The notes under the pieces were generated by a model. It saw only the letters and a list, made by a program, of their open reading frames with translations, was not told where the DNA came from and searched no databases. A stretch of 64,000 nt of DNA. Source: an uncultured Candidatus Saccharibacteria bacterium (lineage in GTDB: Bacteria > Patescibacteriota > Minisyncoccia > Phycocordibacterales > DATDWN01). The DNA lies in the NCBI GenBank assembly GCA_964576615.1, contig CAZNUU010000001.1, positions 164,226 to 228,225 of the forward strand, given 5' to 3'. How positions within the stretch are numbered: position 1 is the stretch's first letter; the number at the start of each line of letters is the position of its first letter. Both the position numbers and the translations under genes were made by a program. This document shows positions 7,274 through 56,321 of the stretch, piece after piece.

Positions 7274-7864
7274 TTAGGTGAAGGCGAGATAGAGTGTGAC
7301 ACCGGAGAAAATCATGGCGGTGATTTGCACCCACCAAGAATTTTCCTGCATCAGCCTCTCGACCGCTGTTCCTGCTGCATCCTTGTGATGGATGCGCAGG
7401 TGGACCGTGAGACTCGCGATTTCCCAGAGCCCAACTGTTGTGGCCAGCCAACCGCCTGCCCCCAGATACCCCGTGAGATACCACGGGATGGCAAATGCCA
7501 GGAGAACAGGACAGAGAGACCAGGCCTTGAAGTGGCCGGGAATCCAGGGATCCGGAGTTCTGACTGCCCACTCCTTCAGGGCCTCCTTCATCGGATCACT
7601 CATAGGCACAACTGTCACCCCATTGCGATCGGCCAAATCGACCAGCTTCCACATTCTATCGGTCATCTCCCGACCGAAAAACCAGAGCTCGTCGACAAAG
7701 CGGCGCTCGAAGTACCTCTCCAGGTGATCCGAACTCACATCCTCAAGAAAGATCGGGGTTACGATCTCCCTGGAAGCCTGGAGGGCTTCCAGTTCACCCA
7801 TCATCCTTCTCTCGCTTAGGGAATTGCCGCCGGATTCGGCGACCATCACAATCTTCGTGGCCAT
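7274..7864 (-). CDS. hypothetical protein with a C-terminal TM region, in a GC-rich islet.
   Basis: 196-aa ORF in a GC-rich block within a low-GC backbone; ends in hydrophobic helices and is followed by a strong terminator. Confidence 0.45.
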   Translation of the reverse strand: MATKIVMVAESGGNSLSERRMMGELEALQASREIVTPIFLEDVSSDHLERYFERRFVDELWFFGREMTDRMWKLVDLADRNGVTVVPMSDPMKEALKEWAVRTPDPWIPGHFKAWSLCPVLLAFAIPWYLTGYLGAGGWLATTVGLWEIASLTVHLRIHHKDAAGTAVERLMQENSWWVQITAMIFSGVTLYLAFT

Positions 7865-7928
7865 ATTGGCCCTCCTTCTGTCCCTATTTCTACTCTTTTA
7901 TATCTCCCCTGTCAAAGACAGTCTTGCA

Positions 7929-8426
7929 CTAGGCGTTTTCCAAATCCGCAATAATAATTTTCTTCATCTGGAGCATTGCTTGAAGTGATCTCTTGGCTTT
8001 TTCCTTATCCGGATTGTTAAGCCATGGTTCCATGTCAGGCACAATCTGCCAGGAGAAACCATACTTATCCTGAAGCCAACCACATTGTCCAGCTTCCGGA
8101 TCTGCAGAAAGATTGTTCCAGAAATGGTCAATCTCAGCTTGATCTTTGCAGTCGACAAGAAGTGATACTGCATTGTTTGGTTTAAAAATTGGCCCTCCAT
8201 CGAGACACATATAAATTTGGCCTTCTAATTCAAAAACTCCCGTTAAAACTTTACCGCCCATATCTGGCATAGGACCAACTTGCATGTCTGAGGGATATCT
8301 TTTGATATTTATAATTTTTGACTCTACTTTTTTGTTTGGATTATTGTTAAAGACCGATACATAAAAGTTCATTGCTTCTTCTGCACTCTTGTCGAACCAT
8401 AAAAACGGTGTAATTTTTTGTTTCAT
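7929..8426 (-). CDS. VOC-family protein (PhnB-like, 3-demethylubiquinone-9 3-methyltransferase-like domain).
   Basis: ITPFLWFDKSAEEAMNFYVSVF... has the typical N-terminus of this glyoxalase-fold family. Confidence 0.6.
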   Translation of the reverse strand: MKQKITPFLWFDKSAEEAMNFYVSVFNNNPNKKVESKIINIKRYPSDMQVGPMPDMGGKVLTGVFELEGQIYMCLDGGPIFKPNNAVSLLVDCKDQAEIDHFWNNLSADPEAGQCGWLQDKYGFSWQIVPDMEPWLNNPDKEKAKRSLQAMLQMKKIIIADLENA

Positions 8427-8455
8427 AGTTTAATTATAATTATTAATAACTATAT

Positions 8456-8848
8456 TTACAATTGACGACTGATAAACAAAGTAATTACAGAGACCAATCC
8501 CGTCGCAAATCCTCCCCACAACATATCGACTATTGTCGCTACATTTGACCACTCCTTGATTGTGGCAGAATTAACTAGATCATATGTACCGTACGCAACT
8601 AGTCCAAGCACTAGTCCAGAAACAAAAACGTGCATTAAGTTTTTTGAAAGATTCGGCTCGAGGATAATATAAACTATCCCAAAGACATACAAGAAATAAA
8701 AAACTACTATGGGTAAATAATTTATTTTATCCACAAACAAGAAACTCAATTGTTTTCGGTAAAACCCGCTAGCAATCACACCAACCCAAAGAGAGTCCAA
8801 AATCACATAGGATACTAAAGAAATAATGTAAAGTTTTAAAAAAGTCAT
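8456..8848 (-). CDS. small polytopic membrane protein (DUF2177-like).
   Basis: Four predicted TM helices; resembles the DUF2177 pattern. Confidence 0.4.
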   Translation of the reverse strand: MTFLKLYIISLVSYVILDSLWVGVIASGFYRKQLSFLFVDKINYLPIVVFYFLYVFGIVYIILEPNLSKNLMHVFVSGLVLGLVAYGTYDLVNSATIKEWSNVATIVDMLWGGFATGLVSVITLFISRQL

Positions 8849-8854
8849 TTTTTG

Positions 8855-10310: not shown

Positions 10311-10703
10311 CTATTTCTTCCTCGCCGTGACCGGTTTCTTTCTCTCCTCGAGAAGCTCGTAGACGATGTGCTCGTCAGAGTCCTTCGGTGGAGACTCGAA
10401 AAATTCGTCAGGCAATTCATCGTAAGTATCGTCTCTCATTGCCTGTCCTCGACTCCGACCCATTTCATCGGACCGGCGCCTGAGCTCCTTGGTGTCGAGC
10501 TTGCCGAGTTCAATCTTGCGAGCCCGATACCGCGTTTCCCTCTCGGCCCCACTTGTGGCGAACCTGCTCAAGCCGTCGAGATACCTCGAGATCTCGCCCT
10601 TGTGAGCAATGATCTTCTTTAGCTCCTCATCTGTCAGTTCGCGATCCTCGAGAAGGAGAGCAACAAAGCCACGCGCCCTCTTCCTTTCTTCTTCGTAGGA
10701 CAT
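10311..10703 (-). CDS. hypothetical highly charged protein in a GC-rich islet.
   Basis: 130-aa Arg/Glu-rich ORF in a GC-rich block. Confidence 0.4.
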   Translation of the reverse strand: MSYEEERKRARGFVALLLEDRELTDEELKKIIAHKGEISRYLDGLSRFATSGAERETRYRARKIELGKLDTKELRRRSDEMGRSRGQAMRDDTYDELPDEFFESPPKDSDEHIVYELLEERKKPVTARKK

Positions 10704-11142: not shown

Positions 11143-11693
11143 CTGACTATTATACTAGAACTGTTCTTTCTTCTCATTATGAAGTCGCCGTCGACTACTT
11201 TGCCTGTAAACTCAAATCCATAGGACTTGTAAAGTTTCTGAGCACCAATATTTTTCTCCCAGACATCCAGATATACATTCTGTGCTTTTTTTATTTGGTC
11301 GTAACCAAAGGCTTTGTCGAGCAGTTTTTTGCCAATTCCCATTTTCTGGTAATTTTGCAATACGTACAATCTCCGTATCTCTTGATCTCCTTCCTGAAAA
11401 TCGTCGGTAGGATAAGATGAGTCAATCGGACCAAACTCGCAATAACCAATCAGGATATCATTATCTTCCGCAACTATTGCAGTATTATCTTTCAAAGAAT
11501 CTGTAAAATATTTCTCTGAACGCCCCTCCTCCAAAGCAGCCTGTAAATCCTCAGGATTTTTAAAAGTATGTCCAAATGCATCCGTATAAGTCTTGGCTGC
11601 TAAAATAGCCAGATTCGGTATATCTTTTTCTGTAGCTTCCCTTGTTATCATTTTATCTATTGTACCAAACGAAATGCCGGGTAGCGCTTTCAC
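11139..11693 (-). CDS. GNAT family N-acetyltransferase.
   Basis: RRLYVLQNYQKMGIGKKLLDKA (acetyl-CoA binding motif A). Confidence 0.8.
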   Translation of the reverse strand: MKALPGISFGTIDKMITREATEKDIPNLAILAAKTYTDAFGHTFKNPEDLQAALEEGRSEKYFTDSLKDNTAIVAEDNDILIGYCEFGPIDSSYPTDDFQEGDQEIRRLYVLQNYQKMGIGKKLLDKAFGYDQIKKAQNVYLDVWEKNIGAQKLYKSYGFEFTGKVVDGDFIMRRKNSSSIIVR

Positions 11694-12307
11694 GCTACCC
11701 GGTTCTTAAAGTACTGTTCGTTGGCCGACTTGATCTGCCACGCGTCGGCGACAAACACCAGCGAGACTGCCTGTTGCAATGCAAGCCAGAAGTAGCCTTG
11801 CATGAACATGAGGATCCCAGCCGAAGCGTTCATGAGAAAGAACCAACCATACCCGTCGAGGTGATCTTTGGCGAGGCGGTAGGTCCCGACCAGGAAACCT
11901 ACCGTGACACCGAGCTCGACCCACTGACTCACGTGAATCATGAAGCCAAGCTTCCAGACACTGACAGCGACCCCGACGATTGCGGCCACAACCGCAAATC
12001 GATCGAGAATCTTCACTGACAGATCCCTGAACCAGCTCGGCTTCTTGTCCAGGCGCCGAAGCGCGAGAACAAGTCCGAGTACCATAGCCGGTGCGCCACC
12101 CGCTTCAACCAGAGTGACCATCAAATCGTTTTCACGGTAGAGGATCACCAGCCAAGCCGGCAGACCAACGATGTAGACCGCCCACGCCGCGATGTTCCAG
12201 AGACGCCATTCACGACCCTTCTCGGGTGACCTTTCCTTGCGGCTAAGGAAGATCTTGTTGAGAAGGTAGAAAACACCTCCCCAAGTCTGCAGTAATCCTG
12301 TGGTCAA
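11690..12307 (-). CDS. PnuC-like nicotinamide riboside/NMN transporter family membrane protein (GC-rich islet).
   Basis: Polytopic; GWFFLMNASAGILMFMQGYFWLA resembles the PnuC W-x-L-x-N...QG-Y signature. Confidence 0.4.
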   Translation of the reverse strand: MTTGLLQTWGGVFYLLNKIFLSRKERSPEKGREWRLWNIAAWAVYIVGLPAWLVILYRENDLMVTLVEAGGAPAMVLGLVLALRRLDKKPSWFRDLSVKILDRFAVVAAIVGVAVSVWKLGFMIHVSQWVELGVTVGFLVGTYRLAKDHLDGYGWFFLMNASAGILMFMQGYFWLALQQAVSLVFVADAWQIKSANEQYFKNRVA

Positions 12308-12405
12308 TCGCCACCTCCATCTACCCGGACAATATCATTTTTTATGGAAAAGTCAAATATAATTGGAAAAATCACTCAAAAAGTGTAGTATTTAATTTGT
12401 TTTAT

Positions 12406-15648: not shown

Positions 15649-15665
15649 TGTCGAACTAAGTATAA

Positions 15666-15960
15666 CAATTTTTTTGAAACGAAAAATACCGTCAGAAAGA
15701 CGGCATCGGTCGGGCCACGTGAGATATCGAATTCAAGACATCTCACGTGGCAGGTCGCTTGTTACCGGACTTCTCCCTTCTGCGCCACGCGCCGATGGAG
15801 ATGCGGTGAGGCTAAGGACGGATCTGGGCCAAGACAGAAGCCCGCCTGGGCACATTCTGCCCCCAAATCTCCCACCTGACCGGAGCAAGGGCACGATTGC
15901 GGATTTTTGCCACCATTTTACTGGACTCGCCAGTACTACTGGTGTCTTATGGGGAGATGT
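15666..15960 (-). ncRNA. candidate structured RNA immediately upstream of dnaX, ending in an intrinsic terminator. Possibly SRP RNA by synteny; unproven.
   Basis: GC-rich, with an 11-bp perfect hairpin CCACGTGAGAT...ATCTCACGTGG (15705-15745) and a minus-strand terminator CCGTC-AGAAA-GACGG plus a T-run (15666-15703). A GGTCAGGT segment is only weakly SRP-like. Confidence 0.3.
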
Positions 15961-16035
15961 ATCCCAATCCCTCGCGCTCTCTCTTTCTATACAATCATCC
16001 TTTACGAAAAAAATGTCAAGACAATAAAGTTGTGG

Positions 16036-16320
16036 ATAAAAAGAAAAGCCCCGGCGCGGTTTTCTGCGCCGGGACCCGTTGTTCTTCTTGACTCCATGGT
16101 CTAAGCCCACTATTTTAATCAGGTTAGCGGGAACCTGCCGGGGCGACACGCCCTCGGTGAAATGTTCGCATTTTTCCAAGCCCGGAGCTCCACATTAGCC
16201 AGTAGATATCTCGCGGTGGATGAGCCAGCCTCTTCCTCTCTGCCGGTTTTATCCTAGTTATTCCGGCTCAGTGGGTGTGGCGTGCAATTGCCCAGCATCT
16301 GGGGATCACACAACCATGAC
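16036..16320 (-). ncRNA. candidate structured GC-rich RNA downstream of dus, ending in a strong intrinsic terminator.
   Basis: Minus-strand terminator CCCGGCGC-agaaaacc-GCGCCGGG plus CTTTTCTTTTTAT (16036-16073). A possible TTGACT-N16-TACCAT promoter lies near 16345. Contains AAGCCCGGAGCUCCACA, which resembles the RNase P P4/P5 string, but the motif order does not fit RNase P. Confidence 0.3.
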
Positions 16321-16365
16321 CAGTCCAGGAGCAATGGTAGCACAGTAGAAAATTAAGTCAATCTT

Positions 16366-17389: not shown

Positions 17390-18019
17390 ATGTCAAGAAA
17401 ACCAATGCTCGCCGTGATGGCGTCCGGAACAAAAACAGGCGGTGGCTCGGGTTTTGAGAATCTGGTCAAGGCTTCACGGGACGGCAGACTAGACGCTGCT
17501 ATCTTCGTCATTTCTAATCACGAAAATGGCGGAGTACGCGAAAGAGCCAACAAGCTCGGTGTTCCCTTCACCTACTTCCCTGGGCCATGGACCGCGGAGA
17601 ACTACCGCAAGATAACTGAAGGAGCTGATTTCGTAGCTCTTTCTGGTTGGCTCAAGATGGTTTATGGGCTTGATCCCAAGACAACATTCAACATCCACCC
17701 GGGACCACTTCCGAAATTTGGTGGTGACGGAATGTACAGTCACCATGTCCACGAGGCGGTGGTCAGCGCATATCGCAGAGGAGAGATCGCCGAATCAGCT
17801 GTGACAATGCACTTTGTGATCGAAGGTTACGACAAGGGACCGATCTTCTTCGCCGAGAAGGTAGAGATGAGGCCAGACGATACACCAGAGTCACTTCAGG
17901 TCCGTGTCAACATGGCGGAGCATAAATTTCAACCCTTGGTGACTCAAGCTGTGTTACGAGGCGAGGTCAGTTGGGATGGCAAGGATCCTTCCACGCTTGT
18001 ATCGCCGTATCATTTCTGA
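17390..18019 (+). CDS. formyltransferase-domain protein (PurN/GART-like), moderately GC-enriched.
   Basis: N-terminal Rossmann-like region and NIHPGPLPKFGG (PurN NIHPSLLP motif analogue), followed by a hairpin at 18024-18047. Confidence 0.55.
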   Translation: MSRKPMLAVMASGTKTGGGSGFENLVKASRDGRLDAAIFVISNHENGGVRERANKLGVPFTYFPGPWTAENYRKITEGADFVALSGWLKMVYGLDPKTTFNIHPGPLPKFGGDGMYSHHVHEAVVSAYRRGEIAESAVTMHFVIEGYDKGPIFFAEKVEMRPDDTPESLQVRVNMAEHKFQPLVTQAVLRGEVSWDGKDPSTLVSPYHF

Positions 18020-20227: not shown

Positions 20228-20485
20228 TTACGTTGTGACTGCCATGTCGCGAGAGGCCGGCCGCAGGCACTTTTCCGCTTCATACGCAAGGACGAAGTAG
20301 CTGAGATCGCCCAGCCTCACCTTCACCATCTCGCGATGTTTCCTGATGCCTTCCACCTGCATCCGCTGGATCTCCCCGTCGGTTACGACCGAGGTCTTGG
20401 CTGGGAGAGACCCCAGCTTTCGAAGTCCGCTCCCCGTGATTTCGCTGAAGTAGTTCAGTCTCCGGCTGATCTGCATTTGTTGCAT
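20228..20485 (-). CDS. small hypothetical protein in a GC-rich islet (start probably at MQQMQISRR).
   Basis: GC-rich ORF; the listed 112-aa ORF extends into a low-GC N-terminal artefact. Confidence 0.3.
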   Translation of the reverse strand: MQQMQISRRLNYFSEITGSGLRKLGSLPAKTSVVTDGEIQRMQVEGIRKHREMVKVRLGDLSYFVLAYEAEKCLRPASRDMAVTT

Positions 20486-21429: not shown

Positions 21430-21731
21430 AAAAGGAGGGCAGATTCATGACCGTGATGGAAAGAACGCCGGCATTCGAAATCTCCGAGGCAGGGACGTTA
21501 ATTGCGACGGAACACTAAGTCGATGCGGGAACCCGAGTCCCCATCGGCAGCAAAAGACGCGCTCGCTACCACGGGCACAGTGTCTCGGTCATTCAGATCG
21601 AGCACGCGAACGAGCAGTTGTATCTCATCGACGACCCGGCGTTTCTGGAACACGTCCAGGAAGAAGCCGACGGCAGAATCGCATCGTAAGTACACCAAAG
21701 GGCTTGGCACCGTGCCGAGCCCTTTTGATTT
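21430..21731 (+). other. GC-rich ~300-bp insertion between dprA and topA, ending in an intrinsic terminator.
   Basis: Composition jumps to GC-rich. Terminator GGGCTTGGC-accgt-GCCGAGCCC plus TTTTGATTT at 21700-21731. Only short overlapping ORFs. Confidence 0.4.
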
Positions 21732-39430: not shown

Positions 39431-39431
39431 T

Positions 39432-39513: not shown

Positions 39514-39536
39514 CAAATTTCCATTTATTTTAATAA

Positions 39537-42715: not shown

Positions 42716-43936
42716 ATGAATGGTGTGAGACCACAGCGACTTCCGGAGAGCCACGCGAAAGCGGCGCTCATCCTGATGGTCGCACTCGTGGTGAATCTGG
42801 CGCTTTTCGGGACAGCGGTCCTCATGATCCTCTTCGGAAGAAGTACGGGATCGTGGTGGGATACGCTTTCACAGGTCAACTTGGAAACGGGAGGGGTCTT
42901 GATCCTTCTCATCCAAGTCTTTCACGCTTTAAACAGCGTGAAGAACGTGAACCTCAACCAGCAGGCAATTCTGCTGCTGTTTGGGGCATTCGTGAAGTAC
43001 GTCGAGCCGGGGCTCATTTATGTGCCCTGGGGTTTCTGCAGGTTGCTTCGAGCGACCACCGAGACGATCGAGAAAGACGTCCCGGCAGACTCACGGTTCA
43101 TAGACCACAGCGATGTTACCGATCAGACCACCGGTGGAACGGGAGTAATCCGAAAGGGCTACTTCCCTCCCATTCGAGTGACCTTTGCACCAGCAAAGGC
43201 TGCGGAAACAATCGAGGTGGGCGGTGAGAGGATCACGATTCCGGCGGACGATCCCTACGGCAAGAGAAATACTGCCGAAGTGGAGTTCTCCTACGGTTTC
43301 GAGATCTACGACTACGCGCGAGTGGTAAAGCGGTTCGGCACTGACGATCCAATCGGCAAGGCCAAGAACCAGCTGGACGACGTCGGCATCGGAGTCGTAA
43401 ACGACGAGTTGTCGCGAATGACAACCGCCAGAGCGATGATGAGTCAATCAGCGGTAGCGAACAAGATCCGGGATACTCAGTCTACCGAATCGGCAGACTG
43501 GGGAGTTCAGATCCTCTTCGTTCGCTTGAAGCCGTTTGGGTTCAGTCACAAACTGAACACTGCGGTCAGACAAGCAGCGGAGTCGTTTGCGCTGAAACAG
43601 GCAGTCGTCGTCGCCTCAGAAGGCGAACGTGAGAGACTCACCAACGTCGGCACGGGCACAGCAGAAGCAGAACGTCTGCTTTTGGAGGCACGGGCCAAGG
43701 GTGAAGCGGCGCTCGCCAAGGTCGCAGAGACACCTGGTGGCAAGTACGCCATGGCGGTCCGAGAAATCGGGCAGGCTGTGACGGCTGCCAGGGCAGTCGT
43801 CGTTCCGGGAGATAATCTCCTCGGAGCGGTGGCAAGTGCTGCGGCACTGGTCAAACAAGTCGGTGACGTAACGGAAACCGGCACAACCGGCTCAGCAAGC
43901 GGAAGCAACACGCGACCGCCTGCATCGAGACCATGA
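42716..43936 (+). CDS. SPFH/band-7 (stomatin/flotillin-like) membrane protein, strongly GC-rich.
   Basis: N-terminal TM, then AILLLFGAFVKYVEPGLIYVPWGFCRLL...(SPFH core) and a flotillin-like Ala/Glu coiled coil ERLLLEARAKGEAALAKVAE. Confidence 0.6.
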   Translation: MNGVRPQRLPESHAKAALILMVALVVNLALFGTAVLMILFGRSTGSWWDTLSQVNLETGGVLILLIQVFHALNSVKNVNLNQQAILLLFGAFVKYVEPGLIYVPWGFCRLLRATTETIEKDVPADSRFIDHSDVTDQTTGGTGVIRKGYFPPIRVTFAPAKAAETIEVGGERITIPADDPYGKRNTAEVEFSYGFEIYDYARVVKRFGTDDPIGKAKNQLDDVGIGVVNDELSRMTTARAMMSQSAVANKIRDTQSTESADWGVQILFVRLKPFGFSHKLNTAVRQAAESFALKQAVVVASEGERERLTNVGTGTAEAERLLLEARAKGEAALAKVAETPGGKYAMAVREIGQAVTAARAVVVPGDNLLGAVASAAALVKQVGDVTETGTTGSASGSNTRPPASRP

Positions 43937-43946
43937 GGTGTGAGAG

Positions 43947-44714
43947 ATGATCATCGCAGCGGTCGTCGTGGTGCTCGCAGCCATTTACATTTGGCTGCGA
44001 GCACAACAAGATCGAGACAGCAGAGGTATTGCGCGGGAGAGGCAGGAAGCCCCTCCCGACCAGGCAGATACGCCCCCGCAACCCGAAAGGGATGCGGATG
44101 GCGACTTCCCTTGGTACAAGTGGTGGAAGAGGCCCGGGTGGTGGAAAGAGAACATCTTTACCATTCCACTCGGAATCCTCCTCGGCCACATCATCGTCGC
44201 TGTCGCGACTCCAGATTTGTACTTCGAGTACATCTGGAGTTCGTGGCAGTTCTGGGCGCTGCAAGCGGTGATCGTTATCGCCGCCTGGATGATTCCGCAA
44301 GGAAATGTCCAGTACCATCCGAAGCTTGGCAAGATCATTGTCGTTACCGCTCTGCTAGCTGTTGTATATGTCTGGGGAAACAAAGCCCTGGATGATGCAC
44401 AGAAAAGCGCAGCGGCATCGAACAATGCTCAAGCCAGCTCATCGACCCAGAACACCCCGCCACCGAACAACGGAGGCAGGATCGTGATCACCGCCCCGCC
44501 GGTCTCGCAAGAGCCGACGGGTCGCATCGCACTACCACCGAGAGCCGTGCTCTCGGCGAACAAGCCGTTCACAATTTTTCAACTCGACGAGAGGGGAAAA
44601 GAGGCCTCCTACGACGGAGGTCCGGGCATGGAGGGGGTTCATCTCCCGCCATCTCCCTACGCCAGGTTCCGGTCAAAATCAGAAGAACCGGTCCTGATAA
44701 CCTTCATCCAGTAA
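43947..44714 (+). CDS. polytopic membrane protein, possible NfeD-like SPFH partner, GC-rich.
   Basis: 4 TM helices plus a C-terminal soluble beta-rich segment; followed by terminator CCCCCCCGCA-tacg-TGCGGGGGGG (44742-44765). Confidence 0.35.
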   Translation: MIIAAVVVVLAAIYIWLRAQQDRDSRGIARERQEAPPDQADTPPQPERDADGDFPWYKWWKRPGWWKENIFTIPLGILLGHIIVAVATPDLYFEYIWSSWQFWALQAVIVIAAWMIPQGNVQYHPKLGKIIVVTALLAVVYVWGNKALDDAQKSAAASNNAQASSSTQNTPPPNNGGRIVITAPPVSQEPTGRIALPPRAVLSANKPFTIFQLDERGKEASYDGGPGMEGVHLPPSPYARFRSKSEEPVLITFIQ

Positions 44715-46202: not shown

Positions 46203-46203
46203 G

Positions 46204-46581: not shown

Positions 46582-46583
46582 TA

Positions 46584-48923: not shown

Positions 48924-49352
48924 TTACCTATCGCAACTGACGATGACACCGGCACTTCTCTTTTCGCCGACGAAGGCCTGACAGGTGATAGAGACCCCGT
49001 CTACCTTTATCGTAAGAAGTATCATGTTGACAACTCCGCCGGGGCGACGCTTGCCTTTGACCCTCTGCCACCTTTCGTTGATGGGAACATCCAGAGCTTT
49101 GTCGAAGTCGTGGTACGAGACCTCGACGGCGTCGAGACCACGGTGGACATGGTCATCCAGAATCTCGAATCCGCCCTGACCATCGTTTCGAACGATGACC
49201 AATTCACGTGAGAATTCGATCGCAACCATGTTACCGGCAGCGATTGAACCCATCGAATCCGACGTGTACACGAAGCTTTTGGTCGAGTCCGTAGCAGGGC
49301 TCTCGATGCAGGCACTCATGGCCAGAACCAGAGATACAAGGATCAATCTCAT
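48924..49352 (-). CDS. putative lipoprotein, strongly GC-rich islet.
   Basis: Signal peptide with lipobox-like LAMSAC; a beta-rich body. Confidence 0.35.
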   Translation of the reverse strand: MRLILVSLVLAMSACIESPATDSTKSFVYTSDSMGSIAAGNMVAIEFSRELVIVRNDGQGGFEILDDHVHRGLDAVEVSYHDFDKALDVPINERWQRVKGKRRPGGVVNMILLTIKVDGVSITCQAFVGEKRSAGVIVSCDR

Positions 49353-53098: not shown

Positions 53099-53164
53099 AG
53101 TTTATCAAGAAAAGTCTCGATGGCAAGGTTTGACAGAAAATTTCACTTAAGTATCATTGAACCC

Positions 53165-53483
53165 GGAAGGGGTAGGAAGAAAACAATAGTGATTCCCCAT
53201 GGGAAACCTGGGGCTTACAAAACAGCCCAAACCTGAGGCAAACCGGAGTAATCCGCGAGAACCGCAGGGGTTGTAGGATCCCGCAAAGTCCCGCTTCGTT
53301 TGGTAGGGACTAAGGAGTTACCAACCGGCTCGACCGGCTCCCGCGCGATACCTGAGTAATGATCTGTCACCGCATGCGGGGCAGAGGCATGAAACCACGT
53401 GACGAGGACAATTCGCACGTAAGGCTAAACTGACCCCCTTCCAGCTAATGCGGCGCGCAATGTGTGCGCCGTTTTCTTTTTTC
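53165..53483 (+). ncRNA. candidate GC-rich structured ncRNA with its own promoter and intrinsic terminator (family unknown).
   Basis: Promoter TTGACA-N16-TATCAT at 53130-53157. P1-like closure CCGGAAGGGG (53163) with CCCCTTCCAG (53434-43). Internal hairpins CCCCATGG-gaaa-CCTGGGG and GGGCT-uacaaaaca-GCCC. Terminator GGCGCGCA-atg-TGTGCGCC plus GTTTTCTTTTTTC (53452-53483). The string AAAGUCCCGCUUC...GUAGGGAC is weakly RNase-P-like. Confidence 0.35.
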
Positions 53484-53532
53484 TTTATTTAAAGTGTTTC
53501 AAATTCAATATTTGACATAATTATATAAATGT

Positions 53533-53775
53533 GTGAGTATTGACCATAGAGAGGAGATGCTGATGGCCAAGGAAGATCGTGGTTTTGCGTCGATGGATTC
53601 GAAGAAGCAGCGAGAAATCGCGAGCAAAGGTGGGAGAGCGGCACACGAGAAAGGTACCGCCCACGAGTGGGACGCGAACGAAGCTCGTGAAGCAGGTCGC
53701 AAAGGCGGCCACGAAACCCAGAAACGTCGGAAAAAGCAGGGTCTACCAGCGTGGATCAGGAAGAAGAAAAAATAA
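53533..53775 (+). CDS. KGG-repeat general stress protein (YciG-like), GC-rich.
   Basis: ASKGGRAAHEKG...AGRKGGHETQKRR are KGG motifs; terminator at 53788-53819. Confidence 0.5.
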   Translation: MSIDHREEMLMAKEDRGFASMDSKKQREIASKGGRAAHEKGTAHEWDANEAREAGRKGGHETQKRRKKQGLPAWIRKKKK

Positions 53776-53966: not shown

Positions 53967-54293
53967 TTACTTTTTCGAAAACTTCACGTGTCGGAACTCC
54001 TCACTCCGGAATCGGCCGATGTCCGATTCGGAGATCCCCTCTTGTTTCATTGCCTCTTCGAGGGCGGACCCCTTGGCAAGGCTTCGGCTGAAGAAGCCTG
54101 AGAGCTCGTCGAGGGAAACTTCCTCGCCGGCGAGGACCTTCTTCGCCGTTCTTGCCTGGGTCCGCCGATCTGCCTCTTGAGCCTTCTTCAGCCCCGGAAC
54201 GGCGATCGCTGCGATGATTCCGACAAACAGGATGACGATGAGAAACTCGATCAGGGTGAATCCTTTGATCGAACGCGCACGAGAAACTGTCAT
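53967..54293 (-). CDS. type IV pilin/pseudopilin-like protein (prepilin N-terminal methylation motif), GC-rich.
   Basis: MTVSRARSIKG|FTLIEFLIVILFVGIIAAIAVP is a class III signal peptide; GGAGG RBS before this Met; terminator hairpin AGGTTCGAC...GTCGAACCT downstream. Confidence 0.5.
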   Translation of the reverse strand: MTVSRARSIKGFTLIEFLIVILFVGIIAAIAVPGLKKAQEADRRTQARTAKKVLAGEEVSLDELSGFFSRSLAKGSALEEAMKQEGISESDIGRFRSEEFRHVKFSKK

Positions 54294-54404
54294 CTCAACC
54301 TCCTCCACCTTTATACCACCAGTATTTAATATGTCAAGCTATCCAAACTTCCTCATTTTTGTATACTTAAAGCCGTATTTTATTAGCCACTATATACGCT
54401 AAAT

Positions 54405-55571
54405 TTGGCTCTTCCCGAGGATACTGACCGAGACCAAGCCGTCTATAGAAAAATACTCATGGCAAAAGCCGTTTTAGACGAGGAAAAAGAGGAGGTAACT
54501 TCTGGGGCACAAAAGGAGGACCTCATGACTCACATTTTAAATACGAGCCTAACTCCCCCATCTGTAGATGATGTGGTGGAAGGCAAAGTAATTGGCGTAG
54601 AGAAAGCCAAGGTCTTTATCGATATCCCGCCTTTTGGAACCGGAATAATTTATGGCCGTGAATTTATAAATGCGCGTGACATAATAAAAAAAATAAATAT
54701 TGGTGATACAGTTGCGGGAAAAGTTATAGGTATTTCTAACAAAGATGGCTACATTGAAATCTCTCTTAAAGAAGCTCGCCAGGCGCTCATTTGGTCAGAG
54801 GCGGAGGACGCAATCCGAGATAAGAAAATATTTGAACTCGCTGTCCAAGAAGCAAACAAAGGTGGACTTATTTTAACTTGGCAAGGAATCACGGGATTTT
54901 TGCCAGCATCCCAGCTGAAAACAGAGCACTACCCACGCGTTGCGGATGGAGATAAGGACAGAATTTTGGAGGAATTGAAAAAACTAGTTGGTCAGAAAAT
55001 TTCAGTTGCAATAATCGGTGCATCGCCAAAGGAGGGCAAACTTATCTTCTCCGAAAAGAATCCGGAGCAGAAAAACAAAGACTATATTATTGGCAAATAC
55101 GCACTAGGCGACGAAGTCGTAGGCGAAGTTACGGGCATGGTTGATTTCGGTGTATTCGTAAAACTAGAAGAAGGACTTGAAGGTCTAGTTCACATATCTG
55201 AGATTGATTGGGCATTGGTTGAGAACCCAAAACTACTATTCCACATTGGTGAAAAAGTAAAAGTAAAAATTATAGAAATAAAAGACGGTAAGATTTCACT
55301 CTCAATTAAAGCTCTCAAGGAAAATCCTTGGAAAGACGCCGAAAAGAAATACAAAAAAGATGATGCGGTGGACGGGGTGATTATTAAATTTAACAAACAC
55401 GGCGCTCTTGCTTCGATTGAAGAAGGTATCGCTGGACTAGTTCACATCTCAGAATTTGGAAGTGATCAGATTATGCATGACAAACTGGAACTTGGTAAAA
55501 GTTACAAATTTAAAATAACTATGTTTGACGCCAAAGAGCAGAAGATGACATTAAGTTTTGTGGAAAAATAA
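54405..55571 (+). CDS. rpsA: 30S ribosomal protein S1 (four S1 domains).
   Basis: Repeated S1 OB folds (GKVIGVEKAKVFIDI, GDTVAGKVIGIS, DEVVGEVTGMVDFGVFVKL, DAVDGVIIKFNKHGALASI); terminator at 55581-55605. Confidence 0.7.
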   Translation: MALPEDTDRDQAVYRKILMAKAVLDEEKEEVTSGAQKEDLMTHILNTSLTPPSVDDVVEGKVIGVEKAKVFIDIPPFGTGIIYGREFINARDIIKKINIGDTVAGKVIGISNKDGYIEISLKEARQALIWSEAEDAIRDKKIFELAVQEANKGGLILTWQGITGFLPASQLKTEHYPRVADGDKDRILEELKKLVGQKISVAIIGASPKEGKLIFSEKNPEQKNKDYIIGKYALGDEVVGEVTGMVDFGVFVKLEEGLEGLVHISEIDWALVENPKLLFHIGEKVKVKIIEIKDGKISLSIKALKENPWKDAEKKYKKDDAVDGVIIKFNKHGALASIEEGIAGLVHISEFGSDQIMHDKLELGKSYKFKITMFDAKEQKMTLSFVEK

Positions 55572-55605
55572 AAATGAGAAGGGGCGGCATCGGCCGCCCT
55601 TTTTC

Positions 55606-55863
55606 TTATGCCTCCAGCCTACGCAGGAGACTGCCATGCACCGAAAGAGCAACTCGCCCTTCGGGCGTCCAGATCGTGACATGATAACTGCCTGCCCCCA
55701 TCTCCATCAGATGATCGAGTGCAGACTCTGCTGTCACGAAGTGACCGTCGATTCTCGTTGTCGCTGACTGAGCCACCATTCGAAAAGGAGCTGGTGACAT
55801 CGGCAAGTGACAATCTGGATCAGGTGTCATCTCTCCTGGTCTACGCGGTCCAATTGGTGCCAT
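55606..55863 (-). CDS. hypothetical protein in a GC-rich islet (uncertain).
   Basis: 85-aa ORF in a GC-rich block; overlapping alternative frames exist. Confidence 0.2.
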   Translation of the reverse strand: MAPIGPRRPGEMTPDPDCHLPMSPAPFRMVAQSATTRIDGHFVTAESALDHLMEMGAGSYHVTIWTPEGRVALSVHGSLLRRLEA

Positions 55864-55931
55864 AATCCCCCCAAATTGAATCCTAACATAAGCATTTTGA
55901 GCGCACGACTTTCATCGTGCGCTCTCGTGTC

Positions 55932-56321
55932 TTACCCGACTACATGAAGATTGTCGTGTTCGTCATCTTGCGGAGGAGCTGACCTTCCACCTCGAAGTGC
56001 ATCACCCTCAGCACGGACTCTGGCAACTCTGGCTTCAACCCTCCTCTGCTGCCGTCGGATGTGAGCAACGACGCTCGCCACCTCACCACTCAGCAGATGT
56101 GGGCTGTATGTGTAGATCGTGCTTTGCTGGGCTTGCCAGAGCTCCGCGATGGCATCGTGGTTCTCTGGGATCTTCGTCGCCAAGATCAATTTGGCCAGGA
56201 TGTTCATGGCATTCGCAGTATTTGCCTGCGGTATGACATTAGTGATTGAGAGATGGAACGGCTTGGTACCGTCATCATCCATCACATCTTTTCCTTGACC
56301 GAGAAAAACTCCGTCACTCAT
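55932..56321 (-). CDS. hypothetical protein in a GC-rich islet (uncertain).
   Basis: 129-aa ORF; an overlapping plus-frame ORF is the alternative reading. Confidence 0.25.
   Translation of the reverse strand: MSDGVFLGQGKDVMDDDGTKPFHLSITNVIPQANTANAMNILAKLILATKIPENHDAIAELWQAQQSTIYTYSPHLLSGEVASVVAHIRRQQRRVEARVARVRAEGDALRGGRSAPPQDDEHDNLHVVG

What the first reader, a model, noticed from the sequence alone, without database searches (positions are those of the whole stretch)
7274..56321. Mosaic of more than 15 sharply bounded GC-rich single-gene islets in a low-GC backbone
Housekeeping genes here look about 38-40% GC by eye. The following blocks look about 55-62% GC: 7274-7864, 10311-10703, 11690-12307, 20228-20485, 21430-21770, 24000-24700, 27320-27865, 39100-39520, 39586-39915, 40054-40671, 41618-41851, 42700-44760, 48924-49352, 53100-54310 and 55600-56330. 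17390-18019 and 28789-29316 are more moderate. The composition switches exactly at gene boundaries. Many islets have their own strong RBS or promoter, are followed by GC-rich stem terminators, and several abut tRNA genes. Cargo includes PnuC-like, Nudix, PurN-like, SPFH and a possible NfeD-like partner, a type IV pilin, a KGG stress protein, a zinc ribbon, RHH and lipoprotein genes. This fine-scale mosaic is unusual for a reduced CPR-like genome. It suggests either massive recent horizontal acquisition from a high-GC donor or a chimeric sequence. Because the islets are only 0.3-2 kb with native flanks on both sides, a simple assembly chimera is unlikely.
Basis: seen in the sequence. Interest (0 to 1): 0.75.

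Follow-up and report, generated by a model that had tools for sequence, protein, structure and literature searches.

The report
GC-rich single-gene slots in Paceibacteria
A small AT-rich groundwater bacterium carries about 20 sharply bounded GC-rich one-gene units in fixed gaps between housekeeping genes; relatives have them in the same gaps, and they use different start signals from the rest of the genome, so they look like a long-kept second class of genes rather than recent foreign DNA or an assembly error.

Summary
Fifty-four backbone ORFs have GC3 0.34±0.03 and 16 islet ORFs have 0.62±0.08, with no overlap. Islets cover 18% of the window, and the switch happens within 60 bp.

It is not a chimera. 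Independent Logan assemblies reproduce the junctions of three islets.

It is not one recent import from a high-GC donor:
- Related Paceibacteria genomes carry GC-rich units in the same inter-operon slots.
- The SPFH+partner module is clade-wide and always GC-enriched.
- The PurN-like gene is vertically inherited, yet its GC3 excess ranges from +0.05 to +0.28 between lineages.
- Four islets shared with the sister genome keep GC4 0.60 although synonymous sites are near saturation.
- No donor was found for any of the four islet proteins searched; one ORFan matches only itself.

Each islet is a monocistronic unit with a GGAGG ribosome-binding site and a strong terminator hairpin, and about half also show a TTGACx promoter. 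Backbone genes show no Shine-Dalgarno enrichment and often look leaderless. This split holds across about 100 related loci.

Best reading: a maintained, fast-turning-over gene class with its own base-composition equilibrium. The force that keeps it GC-rich is unresolved.

The parts
7274..7864 (-). ORFan islet, 196 aa, with C-terminal TM segments. It has a TTGACA-N17-TAGAAA promoter, a GGAGG SD, and a terminator hairpin at about 7235-7250. It sits upstream of a leaderless-type sigma-70-family (ECF-like) gene at 6639-7196.
   Evidence: GC3 is about 0.68. No Pfam, PHROG or PADLOC match. Only a self hit among 5.8e9 protein clusters. Junctions reproduced by Logan contig L167. Terminator.
10311..10703 (-). 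Islet ORF, 130 aa, highly charged, with an SD and a terminator hairpin.
   Evidence: GC 0.54, GC3 0.66. No family match. Terminator MFE -23 kcal/mol.
11690..12307 (-). Islet ORF, 205-aa multi-pass membrane protein. Promoter at 12329-12356 and terminator at 11677-11702. It lies 98 nt from tRNA-Gln.
   Evidence: GC 0.56, GC3 0.68. Only weak Pfam matches: Trep_Strep E=1.7e-4 and NMN_transporter E=0.021. Promoter and terminator.
15649..16365 (-). Two GC-rich units of about 300 nt with no convincing ORF, each with a promoter-like site and a terminator. They could be sRNAs or decayed genes. This is the ruvB|dus slot.
   Evidence: GC 0.52. Promoter at 16334-16361 and terminators at 16046-16077 and 15685-15707. 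Fold z-scores are -3.5 and -4.9. No Rfam match. The slot is GC-rich in L161, L162, L082 and L086, but the sequence is not conserved.
17390..18019 (+). PurN-like formyltransferase islet (moderate), with a TTGACT promoter, a GGAGG SD and a terminator hairpin.
   Evidence: Pfam Formyl_trans_N E=2.6e-17. 1651 homologues; those with a source name are Patescibacteria. Same slot and same promoter in 6 genomes, protein identity tracks the flanks, and GC3 excess ranges from +0.05 to +0.28. Logan contigs L165 and L166 are 100% identical across it.
20228..20485 (-). Islet ORF, 85 aa, with promoter, SD and terminator. Shared with the sister genome at 58% aa identity.
   Evidence: Covered by L165 and L166.
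21448..21690 (+). Small islet ORF upstream of topA with a GGAGG SD and a terminator. It is interrupted by an in-frame TAA at 21517-21519, while the orthologue in the sister genome is intact.
   Evidence: 72% aa identity to L161 10422-10664. The dprA|topA slot is GC-rich in 48% of 21 related loci.
24001..24291 (-). Islet ORF, 96 aa, zinc-ribbon-like.
   Evidence: Pfam Zn_ribbon_3 E=1.2e-5, below the Pfam cut-off. Start coordinate. Terminator.
24396..24671 (-). Islet ORF, 91 aa, with an N-terminal membrane anchor.
   Evidence: Translation. Promoter, SD and terminator. No Pfam match.
27323..27862 (+). Nudix hydrolase islet with promoter, SD and terminator.
   Evidence: Pfam NUDIX E=6.9e-17. GC 0.55, GC3 0.62. 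A homologue at 44% identity, also GC-rich (0.53 in a 0.36 background), lies in a similar slot in L085. Best non-self hit in 1.84e9 representatives is 54-57% identical.
28789..29316 (-). Moderate islet ORF of up to 175 aa, with a terminator. It lies 72 nt from tRNA-Leu.
   Evidence: GC 0.50, GC3 0.54. No family match. Terminator.
39586..39915 (+). ORFan islet, 109 aa, 71 nt after tRNA-Leu, with promoter, SD and terminator.
   Evidence: The 300-bp window 39601-39900 has GC 0.59. No hit in 80 related loci. No family match.
40054..40671 (-). Islet ORF, 205-aa membrane protein, 53 nt from tRNA-Lys, convergent with the islet at 39586.
   Evidence: GC 0.49, GC3 0.56. Weak DUF2784 match. No hit in 80 related loci.
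41618..41851 (+). Islet ORF, 77 aa.
   Evidence: GC 0.50. No significant Pfam match. Promoter, SD and terminator.
42716..44714 (+). Two-gene islet: an SPFH/Band 7 protein (42716-43936) and a membrane partner (43947-44714). A conserved CTTGACTTTT...TGATAnAAT promoter lies upstream and a strong terminator follows. It sits next to a cluster of T4SS-pilin-like paralogues.
   Evidence: Pfam Band_7 E=4.4e-8. GC 0.57, GC3 0.65-0.66. The module occupies the same slot in 45 or more loci with a mean GC excess of +0.09. Its GC is decoupled from host GC (slope 0.375, against about 1.0 for core families). Alleles are incongruent with GyrA.
48924..49352 (-). Islet ORF, 142 aa, with a lipoprotein-like signal. 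It is absent from the sister genome. The insertion maps exactly between the gyrA stop codon and the conserved promoter of the downstream gene.
   Evidence: alignment by eye; no hit in 80 loci. GC 0.53, GC3 0.64.
53100..53500 (.). GC-rich stretch with no convincing ORF, in the S1|w52457 slot.
   Evidence: No Rfam match.
53533..53775 (+). KGG-repeat general-stress protein islet. Shared with the sister genome at 83% aa identity, where it is also GC-rich (0.62).
   Evidence: Pfam KGG E=3.6e-14..
53967..54308 (-). Type IV pilin-like islet ORF, 113 aa.
   Evidence: N_methyl motif E=8.5e-4, below the Pfam cut-off. PHROG pilin E=7e-9. GC 0.56, GC3 0.69. No hit in 80 related loci.
55606..56321 (-). Two ORFan islet ORFs (55932-56321, 129 aa; 55606-55863, 85 aa) in the pth(w56354)|S1 slot.
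   Evidence: GC 0.53-0.55. No hits in 80 related loci. The slot is GC-rich in 40% of 35 related loci, with non-homologous content.
39199..39514 (+). tRNA-Cys and tRNA-Leu.
   Evidence: ARAGORN and Rfam.

Best explanation
The islets are a long-standing second class of genes in this Paceibacteria lineage. They are not fresh foreign DNA.

Anatomy. Each islet is a self-contained transcription unit that sits in one of a limited set of inter-operon slots conserved across the clade. A full unit runs: sigma-70-type TTGACx promoter (found within 120 nt for about half of the islets), a short 5'UTR with a strong GGAGG Shine-Dalgarno site, a GC-rich ORF, and a GC-rich hairpin terminator. The AT-rich backbone is organised differently. 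Its genes sit in operons, show no SD enrichment, often have a -10 box directly in front of the ATG (leaderless type), and rarely have terminators.

Cargo. The slot cargo is mostly small envelope, membrane or stress proteins: SPFH plus partner, pilin-like, lipoprotein-like, KGG, Nudix and several ORFans. It turns over quickly. Alleles are deeply diverged and, for SPFH, incongruent with the species tree. This points to allelic replacement by homologous recombination through the conserved flanks and promoters, together with rapid divergence.

Composition. The GC-richness is an equilibrium property of the transcribed unit, kept for longer than synonymous sites take to saturate.

What is shown: the compositional bimodality, the unit anatomy, slot conservation, allele incongruence, stationarity of GC4, the vertical PurN-like gene with lineage-specific synonymous GC, and the clade-wide SD versus leaderless-type split.

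What is inferred: that islet mRNAs are leadered and SD-translated while backbone mRNAs are leaderless or SD-independent, and that a class-specific force holds islet GC high. That force is most likely selection on the mRNA. A strong 5' SD, a GC-rich body and a 3' hairpin are all known mRNA-stabilising features, and the split in start signals suggests a distinct translation regime. Recombination-associated GC bias may contribute. The nature of this force is the weakest step.
For: - Bimodality and sharp edges.
- Unit anatomy. 95% of islets have a hairpin of -14 kcal/mol or stronger within 70 nt downstream, against 11% of backbone genes. GGAG-type SD: 75% vs 2% (6 of 55 under a lenient test). TTGACx promoter: 50% vs 2%.
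- The dichotomy across about 100 related low-GC loci. Core ORFs (n=953) have SD at 8%, against an internal control of 11%, and a -10 box 5-12 nt before the start at 33%. GC-rich ORFs (n=96) have SD at 60%, against a control of 23%, and the -10 box at 2%. Fisher p=2e-32.
- SD-positive ORFs have a GC excess of +0.057 vs +0.001 (p=1e-21). This also holds inside conserved families.
- Slots. S1|w52457 is GC-rich in 50% of 38 loci, w56354|S1 in 40% of 35, dprA|topA in 48% of 21, and gyrA|w48297 in 24% of 46. Control junctions score 0-6% (maps).
- Backbone genes are syntenic in 35-80 loci, while 8 islet ORFs have no hit in any of them.
- SPFH module. It stays in its slot and is GC-enriched in nearly all low-GC hosts. 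The slope of module GC on host GC is 0.375, against about 1.0 for core families. L002 and L003 share 96% GyrA identity but 24.5% SPFH identity, whereas L003 and L010 share 89% and 57.5%. The window and L001 share 97% and 23%, whereas the window and L014 share 83% and 44%.
- Stationarity. Backbone 4-fold S/W states between the window and the sister genome are 93% randomised, so only 0.27 (CI 0.17-0.34) of an ancestral GC deviation would survive per lineage. Yet the four shared islets have GC4 0.60 in both lineages, against 0.36 for the backbone.
- PurN-like gene. Same slot and same promoter in 6 genomes. Protein identity tracks the flanks (Spearman 0.70, p=0.004). GC3 excess runs from +0.05 to +0.28 while GC1 and GC2 stay constant. 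The lowest-GC version (L162) lacks both the SD and the terminator hairpin, and the four highest-GC versions have both.
- No donors.
- No mobility genes or border repeats.
- Junctions reproduced independently.
Against: - The cause of the high GC is not demonstrated. No expression, mRNA half-life, TSS or population-polymorphism data were available.
- Selection strong enough to hold GC4 at 0.60 (roughly 4Nes of 1) is surprising for fast-evolving accessory genes.
- In the closest genome pair (L038 and L040), one islet diverges faster than its flanks: 78% vs about 91% nucleotide identity, with indels. This fits relaxed constraint or exchange better than strong synonymous constraint.
- Several islets (7274, 39586, 48924, 53967, 55606, 55932) have no counterpart in the sister genome or elsewhere. 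They could be genuinely recent gains from an unsampled source.
- ORF calls and start sites are crude (longest ORF), and 'leaderless' is inferred from sequence only.
- The 16S anti-SD could not be checked because it is not in the window.
- In L162 the PurN-like gene has a low GC excess while the topA-upstream ORF has GC3 0.68, so the amplitude is not uniform within a genome.
Confidence: 0.5

Rival explanations
1. Continuous import from a GC-rich mobile gene pool, moron-like. The islets would be cargo repeatedly delivered by unsampled phages, plasmids or higher-GC relatives of this clade, and inserted or swapped at a few permissive inter-operon sites. Their GC of about 0.55 and their SD-type signals would reflect that pool rather than the host.
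For: - The units have exactly the moron architecture of promoter, gene and terminator, with deviant composition, placed between genes that are adjacent in relatives (concept in PMC3594210).
- Module GC is largely independent of host GC and extrapolates to a 'pool' value near 0.55.
- SPFH alleles are incongruent with GyrA.
- Shared islets are less diverged at 4-fold sites than the backbone (id4 0.47 vs 0.36), which is compatible with exchange after the split.
- Many islets are ORFans.
- High-GC members of the clade exist (L042 58%, L044 53%, L073 55%).
- A published survey finds that most HGT into Patescibacteria comes from other Patescibacteria (PMC12455944).
Against: - Islet families stay in their own slots rather than moving between sites.
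- No cross-genome islet match exceeds backbone identity, so there is no sign of recent transfer among 160 loci.
- The highest SPFH identity between any two genomes is 57.5%.
- PHROG matches are generic only (formyltransferase, Nudix, pilin), with none to phage structural or replication proteins.
- No integrase or repeats.
- Core genes of high-GC relatives also mostly lack SD (16%), so those genomes are not an obvious source of SD-led genes.
- The PurN-like gene is vertically inherited yet shares the islet features.
- The model does not explain why the pool itself would be GC-rich.
Confidence: 0.2
2. One reading: a massive recent horizontal acquisition from a foreign high-GC donor such as Actinobacteria, Proteobacteria or the host organism, not yet ameliorated.
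For: - Composition, codon usage and amino-acid usage of the islets resemble a genome of about 55-60% GC.
- Eight islet ORFs are absent from all 80 related loci.
- SD-led gene organisation is typical of many non-CPR bacteria.
Against: - No donor-like homologues: SPFH 42%, Nudix 54-57%, and the ORFan matches only itself.
- The named relatives of the PurN-like gene are Patescibacteria, and its identity pattern is vertical.
- At least six islets predate the split from the sister species, whose synonymous sites are saturated, and they are still GC-rich. A relic would need an ancestral GC4 above 1.
- The same slots are GC-rich in many species.
- Promoters upstream of the islets are conserved, backbone-type sequence.
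Confidence: 0.07
3. Reversed mutation-selection balance. Mutation or repair bias in this lineage would drive DNA towards about 55-60% GC. The AT-rich backbone would be held by selection, for example for unstructured mRNAs needed for SD-independent or leaderless initiation, or for AT-ending optimal codons. Weakly constrained, SD-led accessory genes would simply drift to the neutral GC.
For: - Islets evolve fast, and one is near the neutral rate in a close pair.
- Amino-acid composition shifts along with GC3.
- ORF-less blocks (15649-16365, 53100-53500) and a broken ORF (21448-21690) are also GC-rich.
- Module GC is decoupled from host GC.
- The clade contains genomes from 30% to 58% GC.
Against: - Fast-evolving backbone genes stay AT-rich. 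The T4SS-pilin paralogues and hypothetical genes at 58-64% identity to the sister have GC3 0.28-0.37, so there is a gap rather than a continuum.
- Long ORF-free stretches in related loci are not GC-rich (mean dGC -0.015). That test is biased towards AT-rich sequence.
- Mutation is AT-biased in nearly all bacteria studied (established knowledge: Hershberg & Petrov 2010).
Confidence: 0.1
4. GC-biased gene conversion at recombination hot spots. The slots would recombine often, and GC-biased repair of heteroduplexes would raise their GC.
For: - Allele shuffling at the SPFH slot.
- Recombination rate correlates with GC in bacteria (PMC4450053, PMC11879095).
- Bimodal GC3 gene classes in grasses are attributed to this process (PMC5031598).
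Against: - There is no spill-over into flanking genes, and the edges are sharper than 60 bp. The AT-rich promoters sit between the GC-rich ORFs and the backbone.
- Alleles are too diverged to form heteroduplexes across species.
- It does not explain the coupling with SD and terminators.
- The PurN-like gene shows no sign of exchange.
Confidence: 0.08
5. Assembly or binning chimera: reads from a high-GC organism spliced into a low-GC contig.
For: The source is a metagenome-assembled contig. Islet and backbone compositions are as different as two separate organisms.
Against: - Three independent Logan contigs from two sequencing runs match the window across both junctions of three islets.
- Islets are 0.3-2 kb with native flanks on both sides.
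- The same slots are GC-rich in dozens of MAGs from different projects and assemblers.
- Islet promoters and UTRs are continuous with conserved backbone sequence.
Confidence: 0.01

Closest known systems
Phage 'morons' (Hendrix/Juhala; reviewed in PMC3594210)
   Same: Each is an autonomous one-gene transcription unit with its own promoter and factor-independent terminator. It is inserted between two genes that are adjacent in relatives, and its base composition differs clearly from its neighbours. The cargo is accessory, not part of the backbone's core function.
   Different: These units lie in a cellular chromosome with no prophage context and no phage-structural PHROG matches. The same slots are used across a whole clade. 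The GC-richness is stationary over saturating divergence rather than a fresh signature. At least one unit (PurN-like) is vertically inherited. The units also differ from the backbone in translation-initiation signals.
Replacement-type flexible genomic islands / hypervariable regions (e.g. O-antigen or pilin-glycosylation islands of marine bacteria; own knowledge)
   Same: The same chromosomal locus occurs in all relatives, the flanks are conserved, the content is deeply diverged or non-homologous, there is a bias towards envelope proteins, and alleles do not follow the species tree.
   Different: These are one or two genes (0.3-2 kb) rather than tens of kb. There are many scattered slots rather than a few. 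Composition is GC-richer than the core, whereas such islands are usually AT-richer. Each gene has its own promoter, SD and terminator.
Classical horizontally acquired islands undergoing amelioration (Lawrence & Ochman 1997; own knowledge)
   Same: Atypical GC, GC3, codon usage and oligonucleotide signature. Patchy presence among relatives. Some units sit next to tRNA genes.
   Different: There is no identifiable donor, no integrase, transposase or direct repeats. The compositional deviation persists where amelioration should have erased it. An orthologue in the same slot shows graded GC between lineages.
Bimodal GC3 gene classes in grasses and vertebrate isochores (PMC5031598, PMC2895627)
   Same: Two classes of genes with distinct, stable GC3 coexist in one genome.
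   Different: This is a bacterium. The units are single genes with edges sharper than 60 bp and no regional gradient. The class is also marked by its expression signals.
Integron gene cassettes
   Same: Small, mostly single-gene accessory units of varied and often unknown function.
   Different: There are no attC sites, no integrase and no tandem array. These units carry their own promoters, whereas cassettes are usually promoterless.

Membership tests
Recently acquired genomic island (un-ameliorated HGT) | Base composition and codon usage deviate from the host genome | tested here: met
   GC3 0.62 vs 0.34, and tetranucleotide r=-0.05.
Recently acquired genomic island (un-ameliorated HGT) | Closest homologues lie in a donor lineage outside the host clade | tested here: not met
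   SPFH best non-self hit is 42%. The ORFan at 7274 matches only itself. The Nudix best hit is 54-57%. The named PurN-like relatives are Patescibacteria. Only four islet proteins were searched.
Recently acquired genomic island (un-ameliorated HGT) | The deviation is transient, decaying towards host composition on the time-scale of synonymous substitution | tested here: not met
   Four islets shared with the sister genome keep GC4 0.60 in both lineages, although only 0.27 of an ancestral deviation should survive.
Recently acquired genomic island (un-ameliorated HGT) | Mobility machinery or integration scars (integrase, transposase, direct repeats, tRNA-3' duplication) | tested here: not met
   No such Pfam domains in about 50 proteins scanned. 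No border repeats. Four islets lie near tRNAs, but without duplicated tRNA ends.
Phage moron | Independent transcription unit with its own promoter and intrinsic terminator | tested here: met
   Sequence level only: 95% have terminator hairpins and 50% have TTGACx promoters, against 11% and 2% for the backbone.
Phage moron | Inserted between genes that are adjacent in related genomes | tested here: met
   Islet 48924-49352 vs L001. Slot maps.
Phage moron | Resides in a phage or prophage genome | tested here: not met
   The flanks are gyrA, topA, serS, S1, pth and similar genes. No PHROG matches to phage structural or replication proteins.
Replacement-type flexible genomic island | Same locus in relatives, with conserved flanks and divergent content | tested here: met
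Replacement-type flexible genomic island | Alleles exchanged by homologous recombination (phylogenetic incongruence with the core) | tested here: inconclusive
   Pairwise identities for SPFH are incongruent. No tree reconciliation or breakpoint mapping was done. PurN-like is congruent with its flanks.
Integron cassette array | attC recombination sites and an IntI integrase | tested here: not met
   No shared inverted-repeat motif at the 3' ends, which look like ordinary terminator hairpins followed by T runs. No integrase found.
Diversity-generating retroelement target | Adenine-specific mutagenesis, a TR/VR repeat pair and a reverse transcriptase | tested here: not met
   Third positions lose A and T equally (A 0.185, T 0.194). 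No TR/VR-like repeats. No RT among the proteins scanned.
GC-rich structured RNA genes in an AT-rich genome | No coding periodicity, a conserved structure, and a known family or covariation | tested here: inconclusive
   True for the tRNAs in block 39100-39520. 15649-16365 folds better than shuffles (z -3.5 and -4.9), but has no Rfam hit and no alignable homologues for a covariation test. Most islets show strong coding periodicity (GC3>GC1>GC2), so they are not RNA genes.
Leaderless / SD-independent translation (backbone) versus SD-led translation (islets) | Transcription start at or next to the start codon, and absence or presence of SD:anti-SD pairing | not testable with these tools
   Only sequence proxies are available: a -10 box 5-12 nt before the ATG in 33% of core ORFs vs 2% of islets, and SD enrichment only in islets. 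This needs TSS mapping and the 16S 3' end.

The most novel reading that the evidence does not exclude
These Paceibacteria would run two gene-expression 'grammars' in one genome.

One is an AT-rich, operonic housekeeping set translated without SD, or as leaderless mRNAs. The other is a set of GC-rich, monocistronic, SD-dependent, terminator-capped genes.

Under this reading, selection on the mRNA itself keeps the second set GC-rich. The selected trait could be long mRNA half-life or a separate translation regime that can be switched globally, for example during stress, dormancy or host attachment.

The GC islets would then be a regulon defined by composition rather than a record of gene transfer. 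It would also be a rare case of gene-specific GC content held by selection in a bacterium.
Probability: 0.3. Interest if true: 0.85.

Novelty: new variant of a known kind. Interest (0 to 1): 0.68.

Why it matters
Atypical GC is the standard marker of recent gene transfer, and accessory genes are normally AT-richer than the core.

Here the flexible genes of an ultra-small, AT-rich symbiont-type bacterium are GC-richer, and they stay so after synonymous sites have saturated. One vertically inherited gene shows the same shift. The same genes also differ from the core in how translation appears to start.

If this holds genome-wide, three things follow:
- Composition-based HGT and contamination detectors (island finders, MAG-cleaning tools) will systematically mislabel native genes in these lineages.
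- It would give a tractable case for the old question of what sets GC content within a bacterial genome, whether selection, repair bias or gene flow, because both compartments share one cell and one replication machinery.
- It singles out about 20 small envelope and stress proteins per 64 kb as the fast-evolving interface of an uncultured episymbiont.

Tried and rejected
- **Exact look-up of window proteins** (SPFH, IF-2): not on record under my start coordinates.
- **Rfam.** At gathering thresholds it found only tRNAs. At E<=1 it found nothing credible for three GC-rich regions.
- **PHROGs and PADLOC.** PHROG matches were generic (formyltransferase, Nudix, pilin) with no phage structural or replication proteins. 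PADLOC gave only one weak hit, Nudix to PDC-S07.
- **DGR-like adenine mutagenesis:** rejected, because A and T are depleted equally at third positions.
- **DNA-uptake-sequence-like motif or any shared k-mer in islets:** none found.
- **att, attC or terminal repeats at islet borders:** none found.
- **Recent islet transfer between genomes:** no cross-genome nucleotide hit above backbone identity.
- **Movement of islet families between slots:** families stay in their slots, with one possible exception, fam33.
- **Donor inference from amino-acid composition of 120 PurN-like homologues:** uninformative.
- **Gene-conversion spill-over into flanks:** absent.
- **Transcription-associated deamination as the cause of backbone AT-richness:** unlikely, because backbone third positions are strand-symmetric.
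- **GC of long ORF-free stretches as a proxy for neutral GC:** the test is biased towards AT-rich sequence and gave no support for a GC-ward neutral equilibrium.
- **Alignment of the ruvB|dus spacer across five genomes:** too diverged for a covariation test.
- **Literature searches:** no description of GC-rich islets or of an SD/leaderless split in Patescibacteria.
- **Structure prediction:** not attempted, because the ORFans have no alignments.

Full report

Yes. The window is 41.9% GC. A 300-bp profile shows discrete blocks of 0.50-0.60 GC in a 0.33-0.44 background. Per-ORF statistics give 54 backbone ORFs with GC 0.389±0.030 and GC3 0.344±0.034 (maximum 0.42). Sixteen islet ORFs have GC 0.543±0.029 and GC3 0.62±0.08 (minimum 0.48). 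The two sets do not overlap, and islet GC3 lies 3.9-11.7 backbone SD above the backbone mean.

Islets share a signature with each other (tetranucleotide r=0.84 between two halves of the set) but not with the backbone (r=-0.05). They use CTC/CTG, ATC and AAG where the backbone uses TTA/CTT, ATT and AAA. Their proteins are richer in G, A, R and P.

Most islets show the coding pattern GC3>GC1>GC2, so they are genuine protein genes shaped under GC pressure. GC-rich segments cover 18% of the window. The switch is complete within 60 bp: backbone GC3 next to an islet is 0.37, and islet GC3 is 0.56 in its terminal 30 nt.

Because I defined the two sets by GC, the real validation is that they also differ in independent features (section 5).

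Corrections to the list:
- Block 39100-39520 is tRNA-Cys plus tRNA-Leu.
- 21430-21770 is a small ORF with an in-frame TAA.
- 24000-24700 holds two small ORFs.
- 53100-54310 holds about 400 nt without a good ORF, a KGG protein (Pfam E=3.6e-14) and a pilin-like gene.
- 15649-16365 is an additional GC-rich block that was not listed.

**2. Organism and artefact check**

The backbone encodes GyrA, TopA, SerRS, ClpB, IF-2, S1, RelA/SpoT, ParB, RuvB, Dus and DprA. GyrA relatives are Paceibacterota/Parcubacteria MAGs in the Zambryskibacteria neighbourhood. The closest, GCA_964594005.1 (loci L001 and L161), has 97% GyrA identity.

Islet proteins occur at 100% identity on an NCBI contig of 236,541 bp. 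Logan assemblies of runs SRR12313480 and SRR12313479 match window 17166-20724 and 17351-20566 at 100%. A third contig matches 7023-8183 in 1160 of 1161 columns. Together they span both junctions of three islets. With the cross-study recurrence described below, a chimera is excluded as far as public data allow.

**3. The islets sit in conserved slots, and the pattern is clade-wide**

Backbone genes from 39 to 62 kb are syntenic in 35-80 of 80 GyrA-centred loci. Eight islet ORFs have no hit in any of them.

Yet many relatives are themselves mosaic, and their GC-rich pieces lie at the same junctions. Among low-GC loci the fraction with a GC-rich insert is:
- S1|w52457: 50% of 38 loci
- pth|S1: 40% of 35
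- dprA|topA: 48% of 21
- gyrA|w48297: 24% of 46
- five control junctions: 0-6%

The content of a slot is non-homologous or extremely diverged between genomes. Islet families stay in their own slot.

**4. These are not recent imports**

*(a) SPFH module.* An SPFH (Band 7) gene plus a membrane partner follows the T4SS-pilin-like paralogue cluster in at least 45 loci. The module has a mean GC excess of +0.09 and is driven by a conserved promoter. Its GC barely follows host GC: the slope is 0.375, against about 1.0 with r>0.93 for core families.

Its alleles do not follow the species tree:

| Pair | GyrA identity | SPFH identity |
|---|---|---|
| L002 / L003 | 96% | 24.5% |
| L003 / L010 | 89% | 57.5% |
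| window / L001 | 97% | 23% |
| window / L014 | 83% | 44% |

*(b) Islets shared with the sister genome.* Six islets have counterparts in the sister genome: PurN-like at 79%, KGG at 83%, the topA-upstream ORF at 72%, i20228 at 58%, the SPFH partner at 38% and SPFH at 23%.

Backbone 4-fold sites between the two genomes are near saturation (K4 1.1 to above 2). Their S/W state is 93% randomised, so a lineage would keep only 0.27 (CI 0.17-0.34) of an ancestral GC deviation. The four alignable shared islets nevertheless have GC4 0.60 in both genomes, against 0.36 for the backbone. A relic would need an ancestral GC4 above 1. Their own S/W differences are also close to saturation. So GC of about 0.6 is their stationary composition.

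*(c) The PurN-like gene.* It occupies the same slot (dus|purN|x|serS) behind the same TTGACT promoter in six genomes. Its protein identity tracks the flanking genes (Spearman 0.70, p=0.004). GC1 and GC2 are constant, but GC3 excess runs from +0.05 to +0.28. The lowest-GC version (L162) lacks both the SD and the terminator hairpin, and the four highest-GC versions have both. This is a vertically inherited gene whose synonymous composition differs by lineage.

*(d) No donors.* SPFH's best non-self hit is 42% identical and the Nudix best hit is 54-57%. The ORFan at 7274 matches only itself among 5.8 billion clusters. PurN-like has 1651 relatives, and those with a source name are Patescibacteria.

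*(e) No mobility signs.* There are no integrases, transposases or RTs among about 50 scanned proteins and no border repeats. PHROG matches are generic only, and PADLOC gave one weak hit. No islet is more similar between two genomes than their backbones are.

**5. Anatomy: a different expression grammar**

Comparison with L001 places islet 48924-49352 exactly between the gyrA stop codon and the conserved promoter of the next gene. It brings its own TTGACT-N17-TAGTAT promoter, an AGGAGG site, the ORF and a hairpin.

Across the window:

| Feature | Islets | Backbone |
|---|---|---|
| Downstream hairpin of -14 kcal/mol or stronger | 95% | 11% |
| GGAG-type SD | 75% | 2% (6 of 55, lenient test) |
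| TTGACx promoter within 120 nt | 50% | 2% |

Backbone genes that begin a transcription unit carry a TATAAT-like box 6-12 nt before the ATG. This is the expected arrangement for leaderless mRNAs.

The split holds in about 100 related low-GC loci. Core ORFs (n=953) have SD at 8%, no higher than an internal-ATG control at 11%, and a start-adjacent -10 box at 33%. GC-rich ORFs (n=96) have SD at 60%, against a control of 23%, and the -10 box at 2% (Fisher p=2e-32). Conversely, SD-positive ORFs have a GC excess of +0.057 vs +0.001 (p=1e-21), and this holds even within conserved families. Core genes of the clade's high-GC members also mostly lack SD (16%), so those genomes are not an obvious source of SD-led genes.

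**6. What it most likely is and how it works**

The evidence fits a maintained second compartment. It consists of leadered, SD-dependent, terminator-capped single-gene units in conserved inter-operon slots. The cargo is small envelope, membrane and stress proteins.

The cargo turns over quickly. In the closest genome pair, an islet is 78% identical with indels, where its flanks are about 91% identical. For SPFH at least, alleles are swapped between lineages, presumably by homologous recombination through the conserved promoter and the downstream gene.

The GC-rich state belongs to the transcribed unit. Promoters stay AT-rich and conserved, and the GC-rich stretch begins at the UTR and ORF and ends with the hairpin.

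What keeps it GC-rich is not shown. My preferred inference is selection acting on the mRNA. A strong 5' SD, a GC-rich body and a 3' hairpin are all established stabilisers of bacterial mRNAs (own knowledge: STAB-SD elements, and the AU preference of RNase E and RNase Y). The contrast in start signals also suggests a separately controllable translation regime. Recombination-associated GC bias may add to this (PMC4450053, PMC11879095).

**7. Rivals**

- *GC-rich mobile pool (moron-like import).* It explains the architecture, the decoupling from host GC and the ORFans. It does not explain slot fidelity, the absence of recent transfers, the vertical PurN-like gene, or why the pool would be GC-rich.
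- *Recent foreign HGT.* Refuted for the shared islets. It remains possible for individual ORFans.
- *GC-ward neutral equilibrium with a selected AT-rich backbone.* It would explain the fast evolution, the GC-rich ORF-less blocks and the broken ORF. However, fast-evolving backbone genes remain AT-rich, and long ORF-free stretches are not GC-rich, although that test is biased.
- *gBGC.* Disfavoured by the razor-sharp edges.
- *DGR-type mutagenesis.* Excluded.
- *Chimera.* Excluded.

**8. Comparison with known systems and novelty**

The closest concepts are phage morons, which share the unit architecture but sit in a phage context (PMC3594210), and replacement-type flexible islands, which share the locus logic but differ in scale and show the opposite GC sign. 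The two-class GC3 picture resembles grasses (PMC5031598), but here it occurs at single-gene resolution in a bacterium.

I found no report of GC-rich islets, or of an SD versus leaderless split, in Patescibacteria. A survey of HGT in groundwater Patescibacteria reports mostly intra-phylum transfers but does not describe this pattern (PMC12455944).

I rate it a new variant of a known kind, namely flexible slots or moron-like units, with an unexplained and potentially important compositional and translational twist.

**Limits.** ORF calls are longest-ORF heuristics. 'Leaderless' and 'SD-led' are sequence inferences. Only a 64-kb window and loci of about 22 kb or less from relatives were examined. 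Only four islet proteins were searched against the large databases.

Noticed in passing
window 15649-16365 (- strand): Two GC-rich units of about 300 nt lie between ruvB and dus. Each has a promoter-like site and a strong terminator but no convincing ORF. They fold better than shuffled controls (z -3.5 and -4.9) and have no Rfam match. The first promoter (TTGACTTAATTTT...) is conserved in L162, while the transcribed part is unrelated. They could be novel sRNAs or decayed genes.
   Followed up: partly
window 21448-21690, stop at 21517-21519: The small GC-rich ORF upstream of topA has an in-frame TAA where the sister genome (L161 10410-10667) encodes Phe. The rest of the ORF is conserved (72% aa). 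It may be a recent pseudogene, a sequencing error or a split gene.
   Followed up: partly
window-wide; e.g. 7196, 11142, 13450, 15648, 17334, 20561, 24783, 36391, 48824, 51883: Backbone genes show no Shine-Dalgarno enrichment, and many have a TATAAT-like box 6-12 nt before the ATG. This suggests that leaderless mRNAs are the default in this Paceibacteria clade. I found no description of this in the searched literature.
   Followed up: partly
window 40837-40867 and 41258-41288: Two copies (97% identical) of a 31-nt repeat, each containing the same 26-nt perfect palindrome (TATCATACGATATATCGTATGATA core), flank a very AT-rich (GC 0.28) Trp-repressor-family gene at 40873-41259. They are probably operator sites.
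   Followed up: no
window 44781-47036: Six tandem small genes. The three that were scanned match Pfam T4SS_pilin (PF18895). These paralogues are fast-evolving (58-73% identity to the sister) yet remain AT-rich. The GC-rich SPFH module always sits next to this cluster.
   Followed up: partly
window 6639-7196: A sigma-70-family (ECF-like) sigma factor gene with a leaderless-type start lies immediately downstream of the ORFan membrane protein islet 7274-7864. A functional pairing such as an anti-sigma factor was not tested.
   Followed up: no
window 53100-53500 and 30301-30470: Further GC-rich stretches without convincing ORFs. One lies in the S1|w52457 slot and the other next to tRNA-Trp. There is no Rfam hit for the first, and the second was searched only at Rfam gathering thresholds, with no hit.
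   Followed up: no
L005 (JBEBJM010000007.1): A contig deposited as a 'Nitrospira sp.' MAG is syntenic with these Paceibacteria and has 85% GyrA identity. It is probably a mis-binned contig.
   Followed up: no
L171 (Logan SRR12113384 contig, 56% GC): A PurN-like homologue (66% identity) lies on a high-GC contig about 600 nt upstream of a reverse-transcriptase (RVT_1) gene. The context differs from the dus|purN|serS slot.
   Followed up: no
window 7244-7819 (+), 11642-12019 (+), 43091-44425 (-): Long antisense ORFs overlap the GC-rich islet genes. This is the usual artefact of stop-poor GC3-rich sequence and is not evidence of overlapping genes. Naive ORF lists will double-count here.
   Followed up: partly
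related loci, family 'fam33' (e.g. L124 12821-13606, L045 15848-16087): This was the only GC-enriched family found in two different slot contexts (TopA loci and GyrA loci). It is a possible example of movement between slots.
   Followed up: no
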